Below, in pieces: positions 9,774-59,165 of a DNA stretch of 59,238 bases; within the stretch, counting starts at the first letter, position 1, and each line of letters begins with the position of its first letter. Under the pieces are notes generated by a model. The model was not told the origin of the DNA. It searched no databases and was given only the letters and a program-made list of their open reading frames with translations. Source of the DNA: Candidatus Zambryskibacteria bacterium RIFCSPHIGHO2_01_FULL_43_25 (GTDB taxonomy: Bacteria; Patescibacteriota; Minisyncoccia; Phycocordibacterales; Zambryskibacteraceae); NCBI GenBank assembly GCA_001823695.1, contig MHVD01000017.1, forward strand, positions 1-59,238, read 5' to 3'. The position numbers were made by a program, and so were the translations under genes.

Positions 9774-10518
9774 GAAAATCTTTACCGACGGCGCGTCGCG
9801 TGGCAATCCCGGCCCGGGAGGATGGGGGGCAATTGTAGTTTTTTCCTCTCGTAAAAACGATGAGAACCGAGAAGTTGTTGAACTTGGGGGAAGAGAGAAA
9901 AATACTACAAATAATAGAATGGAACTAGTCGCGCTTATTCAAGCACTCCAATTTGTAAAGAATCAAGAATCAGGAATAAAGAATAGGGAAATAAAAGTCT
10001 TTACTGACTCGGCTTATTTGTTGAATGGAGCAACAAGATGGCTTCAGTTGTGGGAAGAAAAAAATTGGAAAACAACAGGCAAAAAAGATGTTTTAAATAA
10101 AGACCTATGGAAGAAATTATTCAAACTGCTGAATAATTTTAATATTGAGTTTAAACTTCTTCTGGGCCATTCTGGAATTCCAGCAAACGAAAGATGTGAT
10201 GAGATTGCGACGGCATTTGCTGACCTGCCTGCGCAGGCAAGCGGCAAAAAGCCGAAACTCTATTCTGGTGTTCTTGAGAACTATGGAATAGATTTATCGG
10301 TTGCTTCTGTGCGACCGCAAGCCAAAAGCCGTAAGCTGAAGACTAAAAGCTCTCGCAAGCCGTATTCGTATGTAAGCGAAGTGAAAGGAATTGTCAAAGT
10401 GCATGAAACTTGGGCGGAATGCGAGAAGCGAGTCAAGGGCGTAAGCGGGGCCAGATTCAAAAAAGTGTTTAGCGGTGAAGAAGAGTCCGAGCTTGTCAAG
10501 CAATGGAGTATAGATTAG
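9772..10518 (+). CDS. rnhA: Ribonuclease HI with C-terminal hybrid-binding (Cauli_VI-like) domain
   Basis: FTDGASRGNPGPGGWG, TNNRMEL, TDSAY, GHSGIPANERCD; C-terminal HETWAECEKRVKGVSGARFKK. Start placed at ATG 9772. Confidence 0.93.
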   Translation: MKIFTDGASRGNPGPGGWGAIVVFSSRKNDENREVVELGGREKNTTNNRMELVALIQALQFVKNQESGIKNREIKVFTDSAYLLNGATRWLQLWEEKNWKTTGKKDVLNKDLWKKLFKLLNNFNIEFKLLLGHSGIPANERCDEIATAFADLPAQASGKKPKLYSGVLENYGIDLSVASVRPQAKSRKLKTKSSRKPYSYVSEVKGIVKVHETWAECEKRVKGVSGARFKKVFSGEEESELVKQWSID

Positions 10519-12026
10519 ACAAAGCCAAAATTATTTATTCAGCTCTTTTCGGATTTTTATTCGGCGTTGCCGCTGCCCCATTTCTTGGTGTTTCTATTTT
10601 TACCGCCCTGTGGTTTGCGCTTTTGGCGCTTATTTTAGGATTTTCATTGTTTGTTTTCTTGCCTTCCGAGCTCTCGCACTCTGTGTTTATAGTTATCTTC
10701 CTAATCGCGGCCGCTCTAGGAGTTGTGCGTTTCCAGGAGAAAGACACCGTTGCGCTCAACCCGGTGATTGAGCAGTCGGTCGGCGGCAAGGTGTCAATGA
10801 CCGGCGAGGTGGCCAACTATCCCGAAAGGCGGGAGAGCAATACCAGAATAATTCTCAAGCTGGAAGAGCGCGAGACTAGGGTGCTTGTCTGGGCGCCTCA
10901 TTACCCGGAGGTTTCCTACGGAGATTATCTGGAAGTTACCGGAACCTTGAAAAAACCGGAGATGTTTGCCACCGATGAGGGCGGTGTTTTCAACTATCCG
11001 GAGTATCTGGCCAAGGACGGGATATATTATGAGGTCAGTTTTGCCGATGTTGAAATTGTCGGCCACGGCGGCGGCAACAGAATAGTCTCTGCGCTTTTCG
11101 GCATAAGAAAATCTTTCTCCGAAGCTCTTGAAAGAGTGATAAAGGAGCCGGAATCTTCATTAGCGCGAGGCATTCTCTTGGGGGAGCGCAGCGGCTTGGG
11201 CGAGGAACTTGAAAATTCGTTCCGAACTTCGGGAATAGTTCATATCATCGTGCTCTCCGGATACAATATCGCAATCGTAGCCGCAGTCGTCTTGCGGTTT
11301 TTCTCTAAACTTCCCAAACGCGCCGCTCTTCTGCTCGCGGCAATCGGTATTGTTTTGTTTGCGGTAATGGTCGGCGGCGGCGCGACGGTCGCGCGGGCGA
11401 CCATCTTTGCGCTATTTGTCCTTTTGGCCAAAAGTCAGTACAGAAATGTGCATATCGGCCGGGCGTTGCTTCTCGTTGCCTCCCTAATGGTCGCCATAAA
11501 TCCGAAAATTATTTTCTACGACCCGTCTTTCCAGCTCTCTTTTCTGGCGACTGTCGGCCTAGTCTGGTTTTCGCCGAAAGTTCTGGGTAAATTAAGGTTT
11601 ATGAAAGGCAAATTGGAATTTCTCAAGGAAATAATAGGCACTACCATAGCGACTCAAATAATGGTCTTGCCATGGATACTCCATCTTACCGGCAATCTGC
11701 CGGTTTTCTCACTGCCGGTGAACGCCGTCGTTTTGCCTCTGATACCTTTTGTGATGCTCTCAAGCTTTGTGTCCGCTGTCTTGGGGCTGTTCTCGGCCTC
11801 TCTGGCCTTTCCGTTCGCCATTGTATCCCAGACGGTTCTGCAATTCGTAATCTTTGTCTCCAAAGAAGTTTCCCAGTTTGAATTTTCGGCAATATTATTC
11901 AAACCGTTTCCGATTTTTCTCACGGCCCTCATCTATGCGGTTATCTGGGCGCTTATGTATCGAGTAAATGTTCGGACGGCTATCTCAAAGTTTCTTTTAA
12001 ATTTTTCTCTACCACACTCCAGTTAA
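10503..12026 (+). CDS. comEC: ComEC/Rec2 competence membrane channel (DUF4131 + Competence domains)
   Basis: HIIVLSGYNI motif, SFQLSF motif, many TM helices. Confidence 0.92.
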   Translation: MEYRLDKAKIIYSALFGFLFGVAAAPFLGVSIFTALWFALLALILGFSLFVFLPSELSHSVFIVIFLIAAALGVVRFQEKDTVALNPVIEQSVGGKVSMTGEVANYPERRESNTRIILKLEERETRVLVWAPHYPEVSYGDYLEVTGTLKKPEMFATDEGGVFNYPEYLAKDGIYYEVSFADVEIVGHGGGNRIVSALFGIRKSFSEALERVIKEPESSLARGILLGERSGLGEELENSFRTSGIVHIIVLSGYNIAIVAAVVLRFFSKLPKRAALLLAAIGIVLFAVMVGGGATVARATIFALFVLLAKSQYRNVHIGRALLLVASLMVAINPKIIFYDPSFQLSFLATVGLVWFSPKVLGKLRFMKGKLEFLKEIIGTTIATQIMVLPWILHLTGNLPVFSLPVNAVVLPLIPFVMLSSFVSAVLGLFSASLAFPFAIVSQTVLQFVIFVSKEVSQFEFSAILFKPFPIFLTALIYAVIWALMYRVNVRTAISKFLLNFSLPHSS

Positions 12027-12035
12027 GATTCTCAA

Positions 12036-12079
12036 ACCCCAAAGCAAATCCGCCGGCCGGCGGATTGCTACGGGGCAAG
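12036..12079 (+). repeat. ACCCCAAA-hairpin-TACGGGGC repeat, copy 1
   Basis: accccaaagcaaatccgccggccggcggattgctacggggcaag; same architecture as 15934 and 24783. Confidence 0.8.
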
Positions 12080-12087
12080 GAAATCTT

Positions 12088-12681
12088 CTATTTTGTCGCT
12101 TCAGTAAAATTATTTTCTATCACAGACCAGTTCAGATTTGTGAAGAAGTCTTCAACATATTGTTTTTTTCCTGATGGCTGATAATCGGCGACATAAGAGT
12201 GCTCCCACATATCAATGGCCAAGACGGGAAACGTGCCTACCAAGTGTCCCAAGTGCTGTTCGTCCACCCATTGTGTCAGAAGTCTTTTGGTGTGTCTGTC
12301 ATAACAGAGCATTGCCCAGCCCACTCCGCGCGTCAGAGCAATTGATTTGAACATATTCATCCATTCATCAAAGTCACCCCACTCTTCTTCTATCGCTGTC
12401 CGCAGTTTGCTGTCTTCCGGAAGCGGCGCCGGGCCGTTCTCAAACTCGTCGAAATAATATTCGTGGTTTCGCATACCGCCCCACTCAAAGGAAAATCTTC
12501 TCTGAAGTTCTCCCAAAGCGTAAGCATTTTTCTCGGCATCCTTTTTATACTCGGAAATGGTATCCAATATCAGGTTGGCATTTTTCACATAACCGGCGTA
12601 GAGTTTCAGATGCTCTTCAATATTTCTCGCCGAAATGCCCTTAAGCGCCGGAATGTTAAACTTTCTTTCTTCAAATCTCAT
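12088..12681 (-). CDS. sod: Fe/Mn superoxide dismutase
   Basis: EEHLKLYAGYV, NHEYYF and DMWEHSY metal-ligand motifs. Confidence 0.92.
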   Translation of the reverse strand: MRFEERKFNIPALKGISARNIEEHLKLYAGYVKNANLILDTISEYKKDAEKNAYALGELQRRFSFEWGGMRNHEYYFDEFENGPAPLPEDSKLRTAIEEEWGDFDEWMNMFKSIALTRGVGWAMLCYDRHTKRLLTQWVDEQHLGHLVGTFPVLAIDMWEHSYVADYQPSGKKQYVEDFFTNLNWSVIENNFTEATK

Positions 12682-12750
12682 TTTATCTTTTTTATTTATT
12701 CTAATAGACTAATTATATCAGTCCCTGAAACTAATCGTATAATTTAAGAG

Positions 12751-13614
12751 ATGAAAGAGAAATTAAGCAAGATAAATCTGACCTTTGCCGCCATAGCGAT
12801 TCTTGTTATTGCGGATATCTTCGTCTGGTCTGCGGTATTTTCCGAGAAGCCGTCTGATTCGGCGTCTGTGAGCTTCTTTGACATTGGCCAGGGCGATTCA
12901 ATCTTTATTGAAGCTACGAACGGGAATCAAATCTTGGTAGACGGCGGTCCCGACGGCTCTGTTTTGCGCGAGCTTTCAGCGGCTATGCCTTTTTATGACC
13001 GTTTTATAGATGTGGTGGTGGCAACTCATCCGGACGCAGACCATATCGGTGGCTTGGTTGATGTGGTAGAGAGATACAGAATTGGCGCTTTTATTGAGCC
13101 CGGGGTTTCTTCCAACACTGCCTTTTATCAAGCTCTTAAGTCGGCGGTTGCCGACAAAAAAATTCCGACGTTTCTGGCTAGAAGAGGCATGTCAATTGAC
13201 CTTGGAGATGGCGGTTCACTTGTTATTCTCTTTCCGGATAGGGATGTTTCAGGTGTTGAAACAAATACTGCTTCCATAGTTGCCAAATTTCAGTTTGGAC
13301 AAAACAGCGTAATGCTAACAGGCGATTCACCGCAATCAATAGAAGAATATCTGGTTTCAATAAACGGAGAAAGACTGGCAAGCGATATTCTAAAGGTCGG
13401 ACATCACGGGTCGCGCACTTCTTCATCGGAGAGTTTTGTTTCCGCGGTTAACCCGCAGATGGCGATTATTTCTGCTGGCAAGGACAACCGATACGGCCAC
13501 CCTCACTCCGAGGTGATTGATTTGTTTAGCAAATTTTATATTGAAATGCTAAATACCGCAAAGGAGGGAACTATCGGTTTTGCCTTAAACGGAGCTTCTA
13601 TAATCAGAAAATAA
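12751..13614 (+). CDS. ComEC-associated metallo-beta-lactamase-fold nuclease (stand-alone)
   Basis: DIGQGDS, LVDGG, THPDADHIGG, LKVGHHGS and YGHPH motifs; N-terminal TM helix. Confidence 0.9.
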   Translation: MKEKLSKINLTFAAIAILVIADIFVWSAVFSEKPSDSASVSFFDIGQGDSIFIEATNGNQILVDGGPDGSVLRELSAAMPFYDRFIDVVVATHPDADHIGGLVDVVERYRIGAFIEPGVSSNTAFYQALKSAVADKKIPTFLARRGMSIDLGDGGSLVILFPDRDVSGVETNTASIVAKFQFGQNSVMLTGDSPQSIEEYLVSINGERLASDILKVGHHGSRTSSSESFVSAVNPQMAIISAGKDNRYGHPHSEVIDLFSKFYIEMLNTAKEGTIGFALNGASIIRK

Positions 13615-15891: not shown

Positions 15892-15933
15892 ATGGAACGC
15901 GATTACCCTTTGGAGCGTGTTAGAAATTTCGGC
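15892..15933 (+). pseudogene. Duplicated 5' end of fusA (false start; the frame runs on to a stop at 16006-16008)
   Basis: Encodes [14 protein letters not shown] versus the real [14 protein letters not shown] at 16013. Confidence 0.88.
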
Positions 15934-15986
15934 ACCCCAAACAAAATAGCGGCCAGCAAGTGGCCTATTTTGTACGGGGCGAGAAG
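15934..15986 (+). repeat. ACCCCAAA-hairpin-TACGGGGCGAGAAG repeat, copy 2
   Basis: accccaa-acaaaatag..ctattttgt-acggggcgagaag immediately after the fusA false start. Confidence 0.85.
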
Positions 15987-16012
15987 GAGTGATTTTAATA
16001 TCTGGTAAGTAT

Positions 16013-18166
16013 ATGCAAAGAGACTATCCATTAGAGCGCGTTCGTAATTTCGGTATCATTGCCCATATTGATGCCGGCAAAACTACTACCTCCGAAAGAG
16101 TTTTGTATTACACTGGTTCTCAGCACAAAATCGGCGAAGTTCACGAAGGCGAGACAACGACCGACTGGATGGAACAGGAAAGGGAGAGAGGGATTACCAT
16201 CACTGCCGCCGCCGTAACATGTTTTTGGGCCCCGACATATCTTTCTGCGGACGAAAGAAGCAAAAAAGAAAATAAGCACCGGTTTAATATCATCGATACT
16301 CCGGGGCATATTGATTTTACTGTTGAAGTGAAGCGGTCGTTGCGAGTTCTTGACGGAGCCGTTGTTGTTTTTGACGGTGTCGCCGGTGTTGAACCGCAAT
16401 CAGAGACGAACTGGCGTTACGCCGAAGAGGCCAAAGTACCGAGAATTTGTTTTATAAACAAACTGGACAGAACTGGCGCCAGTTTTGAAAGATCGTTTAA
16501 ATCAATAATAGGAAGACTCTCTAAAAAAGCTGTCAAATTGCAAATTCCCATCGGTGAGGAAGATAAACACGGGGGAGTTGTTGATCTTTTGACGATGAAG
16601 GCTTATTACTTTGAAGGCGAGTTGGGTGATCAGGTAGTTGAAAAAGAAATTCCGGAAAATCTAAAAGCCGCCGCCGAAAAGTACAGAGCGGAACTTATAG
16701 AAAAAATAGTTGAGAATGATGAAGAGCTGACACACCGCTATCTGGACGGGAAAGAAATCGCCCTTGCGGATTTAAAACGAGTTTTGAGAAAAGCGACCAT
16801 AGACAACAGCATTTTCCCCGTAATGGCCGGTTCGGCCCTAAAGAACAAGGGGGTTCAATTGATTCTTGACGCTGTCGTGGATTACCTGCCGTCGCCACTA
16901 GACGTTCCTCCGGTTAAAGGAATAAATCCTAATACCGGAGAGGAAGTAGAGAGACACGCTTCCGACGAAGAGCCGTTTTCCGCTCTGGCTTTCAAATTAC
17001 AGGCCGACCCGTTCGTCGGTCAGCTTACTTTCTTCAGAGTCTATTCGGGCACGATTGAAGCGGGCAGTTATATCTATAATTCAACCACTGGAGAGAAAGA
17101 AAGATTGGGCAGAATTGTCAGACTTCAGGCAAATCACCGGGAAGAAGTAAAAAAGGTTTTTGCCGGCGAAATCGCTGCCGCCGTAGGACTCAAAAGCGCC
17201 AAAACCTCGCACACTTTTTGTGACGAAGATAATCCGATAATACTTGAAAAGATTAAATTCCCCGAACCGGTTATCTCTCTTCGCATTGAACCCAAGACAA
17301 AAGCCGACCAGGAGAAAATGGGCATGGCTCTCAAGCGTCTGTCGGACGAAGACCCGACATTTAAGATAAAGAGCGATTCCGAAACCGGCGAAACCGTGAT
17401 TATGGGCATGGGCGAGCTTCATTTGGAGATTCTTGTTGACCGGATGAAGAGAGAATTTAGCGTTCTGGCCGACGTCGGGAAACCGCAAGTTGCATACAAG
17501 GAAACCATTACAAGCGAGGCCGAAGTGGAAAATAAATACATCAAGCAAACCGGAGGAAAGGGCCAATACGGACACGTAAGAATCAAGATTAGGCCGATGC
17601 CGCAATACGACCCCAACGAAAAGATTCCTAAGAATACGCACAGGAAAGAAGGTTTTGAATTTATTGACTCAATCAAGGGCGGCGTGATTCCTCAAGAATT
17701 TATTCCGGCCGTAGAGAAGGGGGTATTTGAAAGCATGGAGCGTGGAGTTGTCGCCGGCTACAAGATGACCAATATTACCTGCGAACTGCTTTTCGGTTCT
17801 TACCACGATGTTGACTCTTCGGAAATTGCCTACAAAATAGCGGCCTCGCAGGCCTTTCAGGAAGCGGCCAAAAAAGCCAAGCCGGTGCTTCTTGAGCCAA
17901 TAATGAAAATAGAAGTCGTTGTACCGGAGAAATTTATGGGCGATATCACAGGAAACCTGAATTCCCGACGAGGACAAGTGGAAGGTATGGACGAAAGGGG
18001 AGAAATGAAAGTAATTGACGCCAAAGTGCCTCTGGCCGAAATGTTCGGGTATGTCACGCAACTGCGTTCTATGACCGAGGGCCGTGGCTCTTCCACAATG
18101 GAATTTGACCACTACGCGATTGTCCCTCCTAACGTAGCTTTGACGATCATTGAATCTCGGAAGTAG
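16013..18166 (+). CDS. fusA: Elongation factor G
   Basis: [23 protein letters not shown]; start at ATG 16013. Confidence 0.98.
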
Positions 18167-18197
18167 AGCGAGTCAGCAGGATTAAAAATTACCGTAT

Positions 18198-18219
18198 CTT
18201 GCCCCGTACGAAATCCGCC
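18198..18219 (-). repeat. Right half of the ACCCCAAA/TACGGGGC repeat, copy 3
   Basis: Reverse complement reads ggcggatttcgtacggggcaag. Confidence 0.6.
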
Positions 18220-18329
18220 GCCTACTGTTGGAATCTAGAATTAAGAATCTGGAATTAAGAATAACGAGAACCAACAGACAACCACCTGACTAGTCACGTC
18301 ATGTGGTTGTTTGTATGTATAAATACAAG

Positions 18330-18361
18330 CTATTTTCTAATTCGTACGAATTAGAAAATAG
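18330..18361. repeat. 32-bp perfect palindrome (AATTCGTACGAATT core)
   Basis: ctattttctaattcgtacgaattagaaaatag. Confidence 0.9.
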
Positions 18362-18531
18362 TTGTAAATATAAATATAGAAATAGTTGTTTTGGGTTGAC
18401 TTGTTGGCGTTTGATGTTGTATGGTCAAAGAGGAAGTACATTGATGTCATAGATGCGAAAGCCACGATTCTTGGTGAATCGCGGCAATCACCAAGCTACC
18501 CTTCGGGAGTAGCGCTACATAGGGGATTCCT

Positions 18532-19206
18532 ATGGGCAAAGAAGACAGGACAACTTTCGGACAGGCCAACCATGTGCTGACTTTGATAAGTCAGCACAAC
18601 CCAAGTGCCGCCGATCTGGACATTATCTGCGACGGCTATATCACCGACCTGGTGATGGCGGCAAAAGCGCGGACTCTTCCCGTGAGGGATAAGTTCAGAG
18701 AGGCGTGTGGCCTCGTGAAGCTGGCTCCCATTCCCCTCCCACCCCTCCTCATCCCGCGCGGCACCGTCACGGTGACGCTCAAGGAGCGCCACAATCCGGA
18801 CGAGTTCTACCGGACCCGTTCCGGCCTCTTCGTACAGCCGGACTTTCGGGCGGGAGTCATCGCGGAGGCGAATCCGTCTGAAGCGGGCGAGAGCTTCAAT
18901 CTTAAGTACGCAGACCTCGGTAGGGATGCCTCGGACAGTGAGATTGAAGAAGTGCTCGGCAAGAGCCACTTCTTCGGCGAGACGCAAGTCTGCGCCATCG
19001 TGGCAGACTTCATCGCCAAACAGCAAAACGGCGAGGACGGCACACTGCTCAACGGTGGACGTGCGAACCTTTTCTACACAGGCTCCTGCGTCGTGGACGT
19101 TCACTGGTATGCCGGCCGCGGGTGGCGCGTCGTTGTGTGGTCTCGCGGCGGCGACGAGTGGCGCGCCGGCCGCCGCGTCTTCTCTCCCGCCCCGAAGCAA
19201 GCGTAG
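18532..19206 (+). CDS. Orphan protein resembling CPR DGR target proteins (C-type-lectin-like C-terminus with variable region)
   Basis: GTLLNGGRANLFY..VVDVHW..GWRV..W....EWRAGRRVFS motif; only 5 A in 19091-19190; GC-rich, with an SD-like AGGGG upstream. Confidence 0.7.
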   Translation: MGKEDRTTFGQANHVLTLISQHNPSAADLDIICDGYITDLVMAAKARTLPVRDKFREACGLVKLAPIPLPPLLIPRGTVTVTLKERHNPDEFYRTRSGLFVQPDFRAGVIAEANPSEAGESFNLKYADLGRDASDSEIEEVLGKSHFFGETQVCAIVADFIAKQQNGEDGTLLNGGRANLFYTGSCVVDVHWYAGRGWRVVVWSRGGDEWRAGRRVFSPAPKQA

Positions 19207-19252
19207 CTTGCAACGGGGCAAGCAACTGCAACAGACATTAAGTAGCACACAG

Positions 19253-19284
19253 GGGGCGTCCGTCGGATGACGGACGCCCCTTTC
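19253..19284 (+). terminator. Intrinsic terminator after the orphan gene
   Basis: ggggcgtccgtc-ggat-gacggacgcccc 12-bp stem followed by ttt. Confidence 0.7.
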
Positions 19285-19485
19285 TGCTGGTCGTCATCTG
19301 GTTGAGTGCCAATACCTAGCGCCTGAGGCCTAAAACTAATTCAACCCATTGACCCCGTAGTAGAAAATGACATTGTGGATGGGCCACTGTGAGACAAATA
19401 TAGACAGCAAATATGGTATTGAAGTTACAGATTGAATTAATAAAACAATTTACTCAAAAGAGTGATGTCATTTTTCACTATGGGG

Positions 19486-19513
19486 TTGACTAAACCCAGA
19501 CATTTGCTACTAT
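19486..19513 (+). promoter_or_regulatory. Promoter candidate upstream of tuf
   Basis: TTGACT-16 nt-TACTAT with an extended TGn. Confidence 0.45.
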
Positions 19514-19728
19514 TGTTTCCATCGCATTTTTGTTTCCACTCCGTCTCGAATTTGCGGGACAGAGTGGGGCGGGCGTGTTTGCCTGTTGTCTCAATTCGCA
19601 CGAAGAGCCGAATTGCCACAAACGGTCAGACGGGCGTCTCTTTAGACGCAAAAGTTTATTAAGCTAAGTATTAGCTTCCTCAACAAAGCTTTTCTCGCGC
19701 GTTTCGTTGAGGCAGTTACAAAATTAAC

Positions 19729-23487: not shown

Positions 23488-24336
23488 ATGGCAATAAAGA
23501 AGTACAAACCGGTAACTCCGTCGCGCCGTCAGATGTCTGACGTTAAATTGGGCTCCATCCTAACTGCCAAAAGTTCGCACAAACCACTTACTAGAGGTAT
23601 GTCGCGGTCAGTGGGGCGCAATAATGCCGGCAGAATAACCGTTCGGCACAAAGGCGGCGGCCATAAAAGACTTTTTAGAGACATTGATTTTCTTCTTGAT
23701 AAGAAAGACGTGCCGTTTGTTGTAGAGAGTATTGAATACGACCCGAACAGAAGCGGCCTTATCGGCTTGGTCGTCTATAGAGACGGCGCCAGAAGATATG
23801 TTCTGTTGCCTAAGGGAGCTCAAGTCGGCGACTCTTATCTGATATCGGAAAATGCGCCGGTCAAAACAGGCAACCGCCTGCCTCTAAAGAATATTAGCGT
23901 CGGCACTTTTGTTTTCAATGTAGAACTGAAAAAAGACGGCGGCGCCAAGATGGGGCGATCAGCCGGAAATTATATAGAAGTTTTGGCAAAGGACGGCGGT
24001 TTAGTTGACCTTAAAATGCCCTCTACTGAAATCAGGAAAGTGAGCGAAAACTGCTGGGCCACTGTGGGAGAGGTCTCAAACGAAGAGCATCATCTGGTAA
24101 ATTTTGGAAAAGCTGGCCGTAGCCGATGGCTCGGCATTAGACCGACCGTGCGTGGTTCCGCTATGAATCCAGTAGATCATCCTTATGGGGGAGGTGAAGC
24201 ACGCTCTGGCCGCGGTCTCCGCCGGGCGAAAAGCGCCTGGGGCAGGCCTACGGGCAAGGGTCAGAAATCAAGGCGAGCCAAGAAATACTCCAATATATCT
24301 ATTGTTTCAAGAAGAAAGGTGGGCAAGAGGCGCTAA
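23488..24336 (+). CDS. rplB: 50S ribosomal protein L2
   Basis: GRNNAGRIT, EYDPNRS, RGSAMNPVDHPYGGGE; start ATG 23488. Confidence 0.98.
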   Translation: MAIKKYKPVTPSRRQMSDVKLGSILTAKSSHKPLTRGMSRSVGRNNAGRITVRHKGGGHKRLFRDIDFLLDKKDVPFVVESIEYDPNRSGLIGLVVYRDGARRYVLLPKGAQVGDSYLISENAPVKTGNRLPLKNISVGTFVFNVELKKDGGAKMGRSAGNYIEVLAKDGGLVDLKMPSTEIRKVSENCWATVGEVSNEEHHLVNFGKAGRSRWLGIRPTVRGSAMNPVDHPYGGGEARSGRGLRRAKSAWGRPTGKGQKSRRAKKYSNISIVSRRKVGKRR

Positions 24337-24380
24337 CTAAAGCCAAAAATCAATATCAATCCGAGGGGGTTACCATGAGG

Positions 24381-24571
24381 GTAGCAGACCTCTACTTTCA
24401 GTAAGGTCGAACCTTGCTGAAATTGCGCTTGACGACAATGAAGCTCGCTCTTGAAGCGAGAAAACCCCAAACGCTCTAGTAGCAGACCTCTACCCAGAGG
24501 AAGACAGGGGTGTGCTACAGGTACACGCCAAGAGTGCATCCGGGTGCACCGTAGCAGACCTCTACCCAGAG
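24381..24571 (+). repeat. Three direct copies of GTAGCAGACCTCTAC interspersed with unique hairpins
   Basis: Copies at 24381, 24479 and 24551; copies 2 and 3 share 21 bp (adding CCAGAG). Confidence 0.9.
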
Positions 24572-24588
24572 AAAACCACAAGAAAGGA

Positions 24589-24621
24589 GCCGTCCGTGTA
24601 TTCTATACCGGCGGTTTTTTG
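24589..24621 (+). terminator. Intrinsic terminator inside the S10 operon
   Basis: gccgtc-c-gtgta/ttc/tatac-c-ggcggt stem followed by a T run. Confidence 0.7.
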
Positions 24622-24640
24622 TTACTTTTCTTGATTTGTA

Positions 24641-24667
24641 TTGACATTATGGGTCTTATTCTATAAT
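24641..24667 (+). promoter_or_regulatory. Internal promoter candidate upstream of rpsS
   Basis: TTGACA..TATAAT consensus hexamers, but the spacer is only 15 nt. Confidence 0.5.
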
Positions 24668-24756
24668 ATCTTTGCAAGCTCGAAGCGAGCTTTTTGTATT
24701 CTTGTTGGCTGTTTCTCTTTTAAGGAATTCAGAGCCAATGCCAAACAAGTAAGTCT

Positions 24757-24782
24757 ATGACTAGATCGTCACACAAAGGTCC
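24757..24782 (+). pseudogene. Duplicated 5' end of rpsS (false start; the frame runs on to a stop at 24856-24858)
   Basis: Encodes MTRSSHKGP versus the real MTRSSYKGP at 24868. Confidence 0.85.
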
Positions 24783-24827
24783 ACCCCAAACGAATCCGTC
24801 AGCCGGCGGATCGTACGGGGCGAGAAG
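24783..24827 (+). repeat. ACCCCAAA-hairpin-TACGGGGCGAGAAG repeat, copy 4
   Basis: accccaa-acgaatccg..cggatcgt-acggggcgagaag immediately after the rpsS false start. Confidence 0.85.
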
Positions 24828-24867
24828 TTGTAAAGCCGATCTAGGTGTGAATTTATAAGTAAAATCA

Positions 24868-25212
24868 ATGACACGATCATCTTACAAAGGTCCGTACGTT
24901 TACGACAGACTCCTCAAAAAGATTGAGGGGAGAAAACCCGACCAGGTTGGAGTTGTTAAAACCTGGGCGCGCGACAGCCAAATATCGCCGGAGATGGTTG
25001 GCTTTACCTTTGGCGTTCATAATGGACGCGAGCACTTGGAAGTTTTTATTACTGAAGACATGGTGGGCCACCGGCTTGGAGAGTTTTCTCCGACTCGAAA
25101 GTTTATTAAGCATGGAGGCAAGATGCAGAAGGAGATTGAACAGCAGAAGAAAGACTCGGAAATAGCCGCAGCTCAAGCCGCTAAGGCCACCACTGCGCCT
25201 CCGCAAAAATAA
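24868..25212 (+). CDS. rpsS: 30S ribosomal protein S19
   Basis: [32 protein letters not shown]. Confidence 0.98.
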
Positions 25213-58885: not shown

Positions 58886-58906
58886 TTGCGGAGACGGTGG
58901 GATTCG
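58886..58906 (-). repeat. 21-bp duplicate of the tRNA-Ser 3' end (att-like)
   Basis: ttgcggagacggtgggattcg is identical to 59076-59096. Confidence 0.85.
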
Positions 58907-59078
58907 GTCACGAGTTACTAAGTCTTTTGTTGCTAATCGCACAAAAGCCAAAGTACTCTCGACCCCGCCTCAGCTGCAGTCGCTTCGCAACTGACTTCGC
59001 ACCTGCGGCTTTCGAATTCCGCCTATCGCGCGCCGACACCTCGCTCGAACATCTCCCAGATGTTCTTGCGAGTCGTTG

Positions 59079-59165
59079 CGGAGACGGTGGGATTCGAACC
59101 CACGAGGGGGTTACCCCCCTAACACCTTAGCACGGTGCCGCTTTCGACCACTCAGCCACGTCTCC
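59079..59165 (-). tRNA. tRNA-Ser(GCT)
   Basis: ggagacg acceptor, gcacc-gt-GCT-aa-ggtgt anticodon arm, long variable arm, G73. Confidence 0.95.

What the first reader, a model, noticed from the sequence alone, without database searches (positions are those of the whole stretch)
24757..24900. Independent second case: rpsS false start followed by the same hairpin module
Seen: MTRSSHKGP (atg act aga tcg tca cac aaa ggt cc) precedes ACCCCAAA-hairpin-TACGGGGCGAGAAG; the real rpsS start is atg aca cga tca tct tac aaa ggt ccg. The outer 8-nt and 14-nt flanks match the fusA copy while the inner hairpin differs. In both loci the false-start frame ends in TAAGT a few nt before the true ATG. Inference: two unrelated genes with the same architecture point to a dedicated mechanism that targets gene 5' ends and preserves translational coupling through a short uORF.
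Basis: partly seen in the sequence, partly recalled or inferred. Interest (0 to 1): 0.8.

Follow-up and report, generated by a model that had tools for sequence, protein, structure and literature searches.

The report
Hairpin mobile element that rebuilds gene ends
The "false rpsS start plus hairpin" is one copy of a widespread, apparently undescribed small mobile element of ultra-small (Patescibacteria/CPR) bacteria that inserts into the ends of essential genes and tRNA genes and carries a replacement copy of the displaced end about 71 bases long, so the gene keeps working.

Summary
The false rpsS start (24757-24782), the hairpin module (24783-24826) and the real rpsS start (24868) are as described, and fusA has the same layout.

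The window holds a third full copy at the 3' end of a superoxide dismutase (SOD) gene on the other strand, plus a truncated copy behind fusA.

Scans of public genomes and metagenomes gave about 80 more copies, nearly all in Patescibacteria. They sit at recurrent sites in tsaD, lepA, fusA (both ends), uvrB, clpP, rpsL, rpsS, metG, ychF, tig and many tRNA genes.

The layout is always the same: displaced native gene end, then the hairpin module, then an arm of 70.7 +/- 1.3 nt that holds a spacer and a new gene end joined to the gene body.

- The gene body lay on the module's tail side in all 60 measured copies.
- The spacer is unrelated to the local upstream DNA in 35 of 37 cases.
- The two gene-end copies differ mostly by synonymous changes (87 synonymous against 37 non-synonymous codons).

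So the module and its arm arrive as one unit, and the arm's gene end was a working gene end, most simply from another lineage. uORF coupling is not conserved. The enzyme and the 71-nt ruler are unknown.

The parts
24747..24783 (+). D1 at rpsS. This is the displaced native rpsS start: ATG at 24757, MTRSSHKGP, with the final A at 24783 shared with the module. About 10 nt of upstream sequence also align with the real copy.
   Evidence: (repeat family D3). The local alignment pairs 24747-24782 with 24857-24893.
24783..24831 (+). Hairpin module M at rpsS: ACCCCAAAC, a variable stem-loop, then GTACGGGGCGAGAA and the tail GTTGT.
   Evidence: fold -22.4 kcal/mol, z -3.1.
24827..24894 (+). Arm of 68 nt at rpsS. 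It consists of spacer S (24827-24867) and D2, the functional rpsS start (24868-24894), which runs on into the gene body.
   Evidence: arm length distribution, mode 71.
24868..25212 (+). rpsS coding sequence (114 aa, Ribosomal_S19).
15892..15934 (+). D1 at the fusA 5' end. This is the displaced native fusA start ([14 protein letters not shown]), 9 nt after the rpsG stop codon, which is the native operon junction.
15934..15985 (+). Hairpin module M at the fusA 5' end.
   Evidence: fold -25.1 kcal/mol, z -3.3.
15986..16055 (+). Arm of 70 nt at fusA: spacer plus D2, the functional fusA start (ATG at 16013, [14 protein letters not shown]). Compared with D1, 8 codons differ synonymously and 1 non-synonymously.
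11980..12036 (-). D1 at SOD. This is the displaced SOD 3' end (FENLNWSVVEKNLKETLR*) on the minus strand. It overlaps the end of the ComEC-like ORF 10503-12026.
12036..12081 (+). Hairpin module M at SOD, a variant with a GGGGCAAGGA tail.
   Evidence: fold -26.3 kcal/mol, z -4.2.
12082..12144 (+). Arm of 63 nt at SOD. It contains the functional SOD 3' end (FTNLNWSVIENNFTEATK*, minus strand; SOD CDS 12088-12681).
18197..18225 (-). Truncated module: the right half and tail only, GGCGGCGGATTTCGTACGGGGCAAGA on the minus strand, just after the fusA stop. Its tail end lies 71 nt from the V|P site in the fusA C-terminus, the same site occupied by full elements in other genomes.
   Evidence: and 46/51 (loci L021, L156, L179, L184, L196).

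Best explanation
The locus holds one copy of a small element without an ORF that is specific to Patescibacteria (CPR).

What the element is. It has two parts.
1. A hairpin module (M) of 36-83 nt. Its base is conserved: A-CCCC-A(A/G)(A/T)A-S at the 5' side and S-TAC-GGGG-CGAGAA-GTGGT at the 3' side. Its inner stem-loop varies.
2. A right-hand arm of about 71 nt. The arm holds a spacer (S) followed by a copy (D2) of the last 8-50 nt of the target gene's end.

What the locus looks like. The unit M+S+D2 sits inside a gene close to one of its ends. D2 joins seamlessly to the gene body and becomes the functional gene end. The native end (D1) is left as a stranded remnant directly 5' of M.

What is shown here:
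- the architecture and its strict polarity;
- the fixed arm length;
- that the spacer does not derive from the local upstream DNA;
- that the two copies of the gene end differ mainly at synonymous sites.

What is inferred:
- The arm comes from a homologous gene of another lineage, or at least was a working gene end.
- The unit spreads between genomes by recombination. The remnant plus the target's own end serves as the short left homology, and the conserved gene body as the right homology. This could happen after DNA uptake or after a break at the site.
- An unknown hairpin-recognising activity defines the unit as 'M plus about 71 nt to its right'.
- Insertions survive only where the arm re-creates a whole gene end. 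That explains why they are seen at 5' ends, 3' ends and tRNA 5' parts of highly conserved genes.

At rpsS specifically, the real gene starts at 24868. The 33-codon ORF from 24757 is a by-product of the insertion, not a regulatory device.
For: Recurrence and specificity. Three full copies and one truncated copy lie in 59 kb. About 80 further copies were found in genome and metagenome scans, almost all in low-GC Patescibacteria.

Same sites in different species:
- tsaD after SCD (8-9 genomes)
- lepA after IIAH (3)
- uvrB after PAGD (4)
- clpP (3), rpsL (3), rpsS (2), fusA 5' end (2), fusA 3' end (5 plus the window remnant)
- tRNA D-loop after GG (11)

Structure. All 56 distinct modules pair CCCC with GGGG in the minimum-energy fold. 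The median z-score against shuffles is -3.4 and the median is 14 base pairs, although the stems are unrelated in sequence. The two innermost pairs covary, G-C/C-G and T-A/C-G/G-C.

Ruler. The arm is 70.7 +/- 1.3 nt (n=58) and is independent of module length 36-83 nt (r=0.03).

Polarity. The gene body is on the tail side in 60 of 60 measured copies: 5' ends on the same strand, 3' ends on the opposite strand, and tRNAs.

Not a local duplication. The spacer shows no similarity to the DNA upstream of the false copy in 35 of 37 cases. The only two exceptions are tandem arrays.

The false copy is the native one. At fusA it follows the rpsG stop at the normal operon spacing. In L017 its ATG overlaps the stop codon of the upstream gene.

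Copies were functional orthologues. Over 31 loci there are 120 identical, 87 synonymous and 37 non-synonymous codons, giving P about 1e-14 against in-situ decay of one copy. In L179, three copies of the fusA end encode PENVAKEIIETRK* or a near-identical peptide; the two unit-borne copies differ at about 10 codons, all synonymously, although only one copy can be translated.

Repeated hits at the same site give phased arrays of M plus about 70 nt (L014, L179, L259).

Precedent for the logic. Mitochondrial mobile endonuclease ORFs carry a foreign replacement C-terminus and leave the native C-terminus as a remnant, with mostly synonymous differences (PMC3630166).
Against: - No enzyme has been identified, and no known mechanism gives a 71-nt ruler.
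- No empty or filled polymorphism and no excised form was seen. Only low-coverage Logan contigs were available, and no RNA data exist.
- Hairpin sequences are more alike within a genome than between genomes at the same target: mean identity 0.58 against 0.46, with background 0.40. For example, L191 and L259 are identical and L217/L286 are 93% alike. Meanwhile uvrB spacers are conserved across species that carry unrelated hairpins, and tsaD in L017/L123 shows the reverse. Simple transfer of M+S+D2 as one indivisible unit does not predict this. Some extra process is needed, such as module exchange or conversion within genomes, or enzyme-specific filtering.
- In a few loci (L182, L035, L150) D1 and D2 are identical although the spacer is unrelated. 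That requires a closely related donor or conversion after integration.
- The donor lineage of any arm has not been identified.
Confidence: 0.6

Rival explanations
1. The module alone transposes and makes a long target-site duplication of about 71 nt from local DNA. The two copies then diverged in place. The false copy would be kept protein-like by second-order selection, because recombination with the real copy would otherwise produce defective genes.
For: - The near-constant 71-nt spacing looks like a staggered-cut ruler.
- In L259 the two 71-nt segments are about 89% identical over their whole length, including non-coding parts.
- Hairpins are genome-specific, as expected for transposition within a genome.
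- Module-only insertions without an arm exist inside false copies (L213, L276) and in frame in leuS, pyrG, iscU and secA.
Against: - The spacer is unrelated to the local upstream DNA in 35 of 37 loci. This includes loci whose gene parts are 100% identical (L182, L035, L150). Gradual divergence cannot produce such a sharp boundary.
- A symmetric duplication predicts copies with the gene body on either side of the module, but 60 of 60 are on the tail side.
- The synonymous bias, P about 1e-14, argues against neutral decay of one copy.
- L259, L014 and L179 are phased re-insertions in which the 'local' DNA is itself an older arm.
Confidence: 0.15
2. The false start and hairpin form a cis-regulatory leader: a short uORF with a structured RNA that couples or attenuates translation of the downstream essential gene.
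For: - In the two window loci the uORF stops 4 and 9 nt before the real ATG.
- The hairpin is stable on both strands.
- The module tail resembles an extended -10 promoter or a Shine-Dalgarno-like purine run (GAGAAGTGGTAAT). The element may therefore affect expression as a side effect.
Against: - The same module with the same arm sits at tRNA genes and at gene 3' ends on the opposite strand.
- 13 of 41 false starts lack an ATG, and the uORF stop position ranges from an 11-nt overlap to 89 nt before the real ATG.
- None of 80 related rpsS loci has the module or a false start, so it is not a conserved regulator of rpsS.
- No Rfam family matches.
Confidence: 0.05
3. The module plus arm is removed or skipped at the RNA or translation level, as an intron-like element or a gene-60-type ribosomal bypass. 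The upstream copy would then be the true expressed gene end, which would explain why it stays protein-like.
For: - Deleting exactly M plus the arm would restore an intact gene or tRNA in every case.
- The sequences at the end of D1 and the end of D2 match, like take-off and landing sites.
- A hairpin follows the putative take-off site.
- Orthologous false copies differ mainly synonymously: L017/L123 show 5 synonymous and 0 non-synonymous changes, and the L133/L160 and L185/L219 pairs read point the same way.
Against: - The downstream copy always carries its own start codon, or a complete tRNA 5' part, or its own stop codon, and it is equally protein-like.
- Some false copies lack a start codon.
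- No stop codon follows the take-off position.
- Bypass cannot serve tRNA genes or 3' ends on the opposite strand.
- No ribozyme or intron family matches.
- The gap of 110-150 nt far exceeds known bypasses; this last point rests on background knowledge of T4 gene 60.
Confidence: 0.05
4. These are scars of larger integrative elements (phage or island with an integrase) that integrate into gene ends and carry a replacement end. The interior was later deleted, leaving attL-attR remnants.
For: - Integrative elements classically duplicate tRNA and gene ends; this rests on background knowledge.
- The window has such a case without the module: the last 21 nt of tRNA-Ser are repeated exactly, 190 nt apart start to start.
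Against: - About 80 loci all have the same minimal size and the same arm length of 71 +/- 1 nt. Random internal deletions cannot produce that.
- No integrase or other ORF lies between the copies in any locus.
- The copies are not identical att cores; they differ by synonymous changes.
- No true module copy was found among the three viral-contig hits.
Confidence: 0.05

Closest known systems
Mitochondrial mobile ORF (homing-endonuclease) elements that form 'gene hybrids': Allomyces atp6; Glomus atp6, atp9, cox2 and nad3 (PMC3630166)
   Same: - The element sits near the end of a conserved gene.
- It carries a replacement gene end of foreign origin that is joined to the gene core.
- The native end is left beyond the element as a remnant.
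- The two ends differ mostly by synonymous changes.
- The pattern is interpreted as horizontal transfer.
   Different: - Those elements encode a LAGLIDADG or GIY-YIG endonuclease and are about 1 kb long. Here there is no ORF, only a 36-83 nt hairpin.
- Here the arm has a fixed length of about 71 nt.
- Here 5' ends, 3' ends and tRNA genes are all hit.
- The hosts here are CPR bacteria, not mitochondria.
Small palindromic repeat elements of bacteria: REP/REPIN with RAYT transposases, and Rickettsia palindromic elements (RPE). The comparison rests on background knowledge.
   Same: - Short hairpin-forming repeats with many copies per genome.
- Genome-specific sequence families.
- A GTAG...CTAC motif at the stem base in the commoner variant.
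- A short variant is inserted in frame inside ORFs such as leuS, pyrG, iscU and secA without duplication, as RPEs are.
   Different: - REPs are extragenic and RPEs make no gene-end duplication.
- None of these carries a fixed-length arm that rebuilds the interrupted gene.
- No RAYT-like gene has been linked to the module here.
Integrative elements (tyrosine-integrase phages and islands) that integrate into tRNA or protein gene ends and restore them
   Same: The inserted DNA supplies a copy of the gene end, so the target gene stays intact, and a partial duplicate marks the other junction.
   Different: - No integrase and no cargo are present here.
- The total insert is only about 110-150 nt.
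- Many different targets are each matched by their own arm.
- The copies are homeologous rather than identical cores.
Synthetic 'cleave and rescue' / home-and-rescue gene drives (ClvR, PMC6442612)
   Same: A selfish insertion is associated with an essential gene and carries a recoded rescue copy of the disrupted part.
   Different: Those are engineered Cas9/gRNA systems. Here no nuclease or guide has been found, and the 'recoding' is natural orthologous divergence.

Membership tests
MITE (miniature inverted-repeat transposable element) | Terminal inverted repeats derived from an IS element, flanked by a short (2-14 bp) identical target-site duplication | tested here: not met
   The flanking repeats are 8-50 nt, not identical, and confined to the gene part. 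The spacer is unrelated to local DNA. No IS-like ends are present.
REP/REPIN (RAYT-mobilised) | Extragenic palindromes with a conserved GTAG tetranucleotide, forming genome-specific families | tested here: inconclusive
   GTAS...STAC lies at the stem base and the families are genome-specific. However, the copies lie inside genes and carry an arm.
REP/REPIN (RAYT-mobilised) | A cognate single-copy RAYT (Y1 HUH transposase) gene in the genome | not tested
   Whole genomes could not be scanned with these tools. None of the ten window ORFs scanned against Pfam has such a domain.
Rickettsia palindromic elements (in-frame selfish DNA) | In-frame insertion into ORFs, translated as an extra peptide, with no duplication of the target | tested here: not met
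   This feature is met only by the short GCAAGRA variant in other genomes (L023, L031, L036, L145). The rpsS, fusA and SOD copies are out of frame or duplicated.
Integron attC site / gene cassette | R''/R' core sites RYYYAAC...GTTRRRY, in arrays of cassettes next to intI | tested here: not met
   The module base is CCCCA(A/G)(A/T)A...TACGGGG and does not fit the core sites. Copies are dispersed singly inside housekeeping genes.
Homing-endonuclease mobile ORF with replacement gene end | An endonuclease ORF inside the element | tested here: not met
   There is no ORF between D1 and D2 in any locus; the inserts are 110-150 nt.
Homing-endonuclease mobile ORF with replacement gene end | A foreign replacement end joined to the gene core, with the native end left as a remnant beyond the element | tested here: met
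   Polarity is 60 of 60. D1 sits in its native context. The codon differences are biased towards synonymous changes.
Programmed translational bypass (T4 gene 60 type) | Matched take-off and landing codons, a stop codon right after take-off, and no independent start for the downstream part | tested here: not met
   No stop codon follows D1. D2 has its own ATG. tRNA genes and 3' ends on the opposite strand are also targets.
Diversity-generating retroelement (TR/VR pair) | Differences between the two repeats confined to adenines of the template repeat, with a reverse transcriptase nearby | tested here: not met
   The mismatches between the fusA copies involve all four bases in both directions. 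No reverse transcriptase turned up among the ten window ORFs scanned against Pfam.
Known structured RNA families (Rfam 15) | A match to a curated covariance model | tested here: not met
   Only tmRNA and three tRNAs were found in the window. Nothing meaningful was found at 24300-24900, even at E up to 10.

The most novel reading that the evidence does not exclude
This may be a previously unrecognised class of mobile DNA: a hairpin with no ORF, which an unknown hairpin-specific enzyme packages together with about 71 nt of whatever lies on its tail side. The unit then inserts, guided by homology, at the matching position of the same gene in other genomes. It replaces the ends of essential genes and tRNAs with foreign but functional copies. 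That would make it a natural 'home-and-rescue' element with a molecular ruler, spreading among naturally competent CPR bacteria.
Probability: 0.4. Interest if true: 0.9.

Novelty: new variant of a known kind. Interest (0 to 1): 0.82.

Why it matters
1. It shows that even the most reduced bacterial genomes carry a prolific selfish element inside their most conserved genes (EF-G, S19, S12, LepA, TsaD, UvrB, ClpP and tRNAs). The element is tolerated because it brings its own replacement gene end.

2. The fixed arm of about 71 nt, the strict polarity and the homeologous copies point to an insertion mechanism with a molecular ruler and homology guidance that has no described counterpart. Identifying the enzyme could yield a new DNA-insertion activity.

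3. The stranded native ends and foreign arms are direct records of recombination between CPR lineages. They can be used to trace gene flow in organisms that cannot be cultured.

4. On the practical side, these loci create false starts, spurious uORFs, apparently split genes and partial tRNA calls in CPR genome annotations.

Tried and rejected
- Rfam, at gathering thresholds on the whole window and at permissive thresholds on 24300-24900: nothing relevant.
- 80 related rpsS loci: none has the module or a false start, so there is no comparative 'empty versus filled' pair close enough to date the insertion. Many of those genomes have lost rplB-rpsS linkage.
- Viral contigs: three pattern hits. 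The one inspected (L119) lies inside a large phage ORF, none shows a flanking duplication, and all are taken as chance.
- Public reads: only Logan contigs at about 3-5x depth. They showed no joints and no polymorphism. No RNA runs were available.
- Pfam, NCBIfam and PHROGs on the orphan ORF between fusA and tuf, as a possible enzyme: no hits.
- A conserved -35-like TTGCAA in the spacer: seen in some genomes but not general.
- Average identity profile between the two 71-nt segments: it declines smoothly and shows no step that would define a shorter duplication.
- Literature searches (six queries) found no description of this element. TIGR-Tas arrays of parasitic bacteria surfaced in one search but were set aside: by my own recollection they are tandem guide-RNA arrays, whereas these modules are dispersed single copies.
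- The hits in rpsB of non-CPR bacteria (L009, L029, L030) are the native NPKM..YGAR coding motif, not modules.

Full report
**1.

At 24757-24782 the sequence ATGACTAGATCGTCACACAAAGGTCC (MTRSSHKGP) is followed by ACCCCAAAC, a 21-nt stem-loop, and GTACGGGGCGAGAAG. The ORF from this ATG (24757..24858, 33 aa) stops 9 nt before the real rpsS ATG at 24868, which opens ATGACACGATCATCTTACAAAGGTCCG.

fusA has the same layout:
- false start at 15892 ([14 protein letters not shown]), 9 nt after the rpsG stop codon;
- module at 15934-15985;
- a 38-aa ORF ending 4 nt before the real ATG at 16013 ([14 protein letters not shown]).

The conserved flanks are far beyond chance. The 14-mer occurs twice against 0.38 expected. 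The gapped pattern occurs three times against 0.05 expected. The sequence is identical in independent assemblies of the same organism, a Rifle groundwater Patescibacteria genome (GCA_001823895.1).

**2. The device is not restricted to gene starts**

The gapped pattern revealed a third copy at 12036-12081, between a ComEC-like ORF and a SOD gene on the minus strand. There the 3' end of SOD is duplicated:
- the real end FTNLNWSVIENNFTEATK* lies to the right of the module;
- a displaced end FENLNWSVVEKNLKETLR* lies to its left.

A fourth, truncated copy on the minus strand (18197-18225) follows the fusA stop. Its tail lies 71 nt from the V|P site in ...[16 protein letters not shown], the same site occupied by full elements in five other genomes.

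Module-like hairpins without an arm lie at 19189-19228 and 24463-24513.

**3. The family**

Two scans of species-representative genomes and one metagenome scan gave about 80 true copies. Nearly all are in low-GC Patescibacteria: Paceibacteria, Nomura-, Taylor-, Kaiser-, Zambryski- and Lloydbacteria, plus MAGs labelled 'Saccharibacteria'.

The commoner left end is ACCCCAGTA, which gives a continuous stem with one bulged A. The window carries the ACCCCAAA variant. The conserved tail extends to GAGAAGTGGT(AAT).

All 56 distinct modules pair CCCC with GGGG. They fold well below shuffles (median z -3.4) although their stems are unrelated in sequence. The innermost pairs covary.

Every copy with the GCGAGAA tail shows the same order: displaced gene end (D1, always ending in the A that precedes CCCC), then the module, then the spacer, then a second gene end (D2) continuous with the gene.

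Targets recur across species:
- tsaD after SCD
- lepA after IIAH
- typA
- fusA after NFG, and before PxNVA near the 3' end
- uvrB after PAGD
- clpP after MLIPTV
- rpsL after MPTxNQ
- rpsS after KGP (the window and L010)
- metG, response regulators, ychF, tig
- the D-loop of at least 11 tRNA genes

**4. Four quantitative features constrain the mechanism**

(a) Ruler. The distance from the end of GAGAA to the base homologous to the last base of D1 is 70.7 +/- 1.3 nt (n=58; mode 71). It is independent of module length 36-83 nt (r=0.03) and of how much of the arm is gene (8-50 nt).

(b) Polarity. The gene body is on the tail side in 60 of 60 measured copies. A symmetric target-site duplication would also produce copies with the body on the other side.

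(c) Spacer origin. The spacer is not derived from local DNA. In 35 of 37 loci it has no detectable similarity to the sequence upstream of D1. The only two exceptions are phased tandem arrays. In L182, L035 and L150 the gene parts are 100% identical, yet similarity stops abruptly at the gene boundary.

(d) Codon pattern. Where both copies keep an aligned start, 120 codons are identical, 87 differ synonymously and only 37 non-synonymously. That gives P about 1e-14 against decay of one copy in place. In L179, three copies of the fusA end encode PENVAKEIIETRK* or a near-identical peptide; the two unit-borne copies differ at about 10 codons, all synonymously, although only one copy can be translated.

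D1 is the native copy. At fusA it keeps the normal rpsG-fusA spacing. In L017 its ATG overlaps the upstream gene's stop codon.

Together these features mean two things. The module, spacer and D2 enter as one piece. Both copies of the gene end were working gene ends, and the simplest reading is that the arm comes from an orthologue in another lineage.

**5. How it most likely works**

Shown:
- a polar unit, 'hairpin plus about 71 nt';
- recurrent occupation of the same positions in conserved genes;
- re-insertion at the same site, giving phased arrays (L014, L179, L259).

Inferred:
- Once a unit exists for a given gene end, it can spread between genomes by ordinary recombination. The remnant (D1) of the donor pairs with the recipient's intact end, and the conserved gene body gives the long right-hand homology.
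- CPR bacteria encode DNA-uptake machinery; a ComEC is present in this window.
- A break at the site would give the same product by repair. This is the homing logic of mitochondrial endonuclease ORFs, which also carry foreign replacement gene ends and leave native remnants with mostly synonymous differences (PMC3630166).
- Only insertions whose arm contains a complete gene end survive. That explains the restriction to within about 50 nt of gene ends, without any mechanism that 'recognises' starts.

Unexplained:
- What measures 71 nt, and what first creates a unit for a new target.
- Why hairpins are genome-specific (same-genome identity 0.58, against 0.46 for the same target in other genomes and 0.40 background), while spacers can be conserved across species with unrelated hairpins (uvrB), or the reverse (tsaD in L017/L123: hairpin 46 of 46 identical, spacer diverged). 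This calls for module exchange within genomes, or for enzyme-specific filtering.

**6.

A dedicated device is confirmed. However, uORF-mediated coupling is not a family feature:
- 13 of 41 false starts lack an ATG;
- uORF stops range from an 11-nt overlap to 89 nt before the real ATG;
- the TAAGT motif is private to the two window loci.

tRNA and 3'-end targets exclude a translational rationale. The module tail resembles an extended -10 promoter, so effects on expression are possible as a side effect. In the window the rpsS false start is itself preceded by a promoter-like TTGACA-17-TAATAT and a terminator-like hairpin.

**7. Comparison with known systems and novelty**

- The element shares its logic with mitochondrial mobile-ORF gene hybrids and with integrative elements that restore tRNA genes. 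It has no endonuclease, no integrase and no cargo.
- It shares form with REP/REPIN and RPE repeats. None of those rebuilds the interrupted gene or carries a fixed-length arm.
- It fails the tested defining features of MITEs, attC sites, DGRs, gene-60 bypass and all Rfam families.
- Six literature searches found no description of it.

I therefore rate it a new variant within small palindromic mobile repeats and gene-end-replacing selfish elements. There is a substantial chance (about 0.4) that the underlying ruler-plus-homology mechanism is new in kind.

**8. Limits**

- There is no expression data and no empty-site alleles.
- No enzyme has been identified.
- Assignment of the arm as foreign rests on codon patterns and spacer dissimilarity, not on an identified donor.

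Noticed in passing
window 58886-58906 and 59076-59096: The last 21 nt of tRNA-Ser (gene 59078-59165, minus strand) are repeated exactly, 190 nt apart start to start (169 nt lie between the copies), and no hairpin module lies between them. It looks like the two att-type junctions of a different, very small or internally deleted integrative element.
   Followed up: partly
window 10503-13614: ComEC appears split. The DUF4131 and Competence domains are in ORF 10503-12026, and the metallo-beta-lactamase domain is in a separate ORF 12751-13614. The SOD gene (minus strand) and a module lie between them.
   Followed up: partly
window 18167-19728: A 1.5-kb insertion separates fusA from tuf. It holds an orphan ORF that looks G+C-rich by eye (18532-19206, 224 aa) with no Pfam, NCBIfam or PHROGs match. 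The ORF's last codons (PAPKQA*) are supplied by a module-like hairpin at 19189-19228. A truncated module lies at the left edge of the insertion.
   Followed up: partly
window 24337-24756: The 420-nt stretch between rplB and the false rpsS start contains several small features:
- three copies of the mini-palindrome GTAGCAGACCTCTAC (24381, 24479, 24551);
- a degenerate module-like hairpin (24463-24513);
- a promoter-like TTGACA-17-TAATAT (24641-24669);
- a terminator-like hairpin (24676-24692).
Its origin is unexplained. It may be a pile-up of older hairpin elements.
   Followed up: partly
L023, L130 (leuS); L036, L131 (pyrG); L031, L140, L153, L170 (iscU); L145 (secA); L149: A short variant of the module (36-51 nt, tail GGGGCAAGRA or GCGAGGA) is inserted in frame inside conserved ORFs without any duplication. 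It is always read as (N/D)PK...YGARK. This resembles Rickettsia palindromic elements.
   Followed up: partly
L213, L233, L250, L276 (false copies left of the module): Displaced gene-end remnants have themselves collected further small hairpin insertions, either tail-less modules or other mini-palindromes. These sit at one position in the tRNA D-loop copy or in the typA copy. The remnants therefore seem free to accumulate such insertions.
   Followed up: no
L269 compared with L221 and the other tsaD loci: tsaD has two insertion sites, after IE and after SCD. L269 combines a remnant ending at the IE site with an arm ending at the SCD site. This suggests recombination within the module between two different elements.
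   Followed up: no
L009, L029, L030 (rpsB of Pseudothermotoga and Gastranaerophilales): The native RpsB coding motif W-NPKM-x-PYI-YGAR-N matches the module's conserved flanks (AACCCCAAA...TACGGGGCGAGAA), in the same reading frame as the in-frame module insertions. This is probably coincidence, but it was not tested.
   Followed up: no
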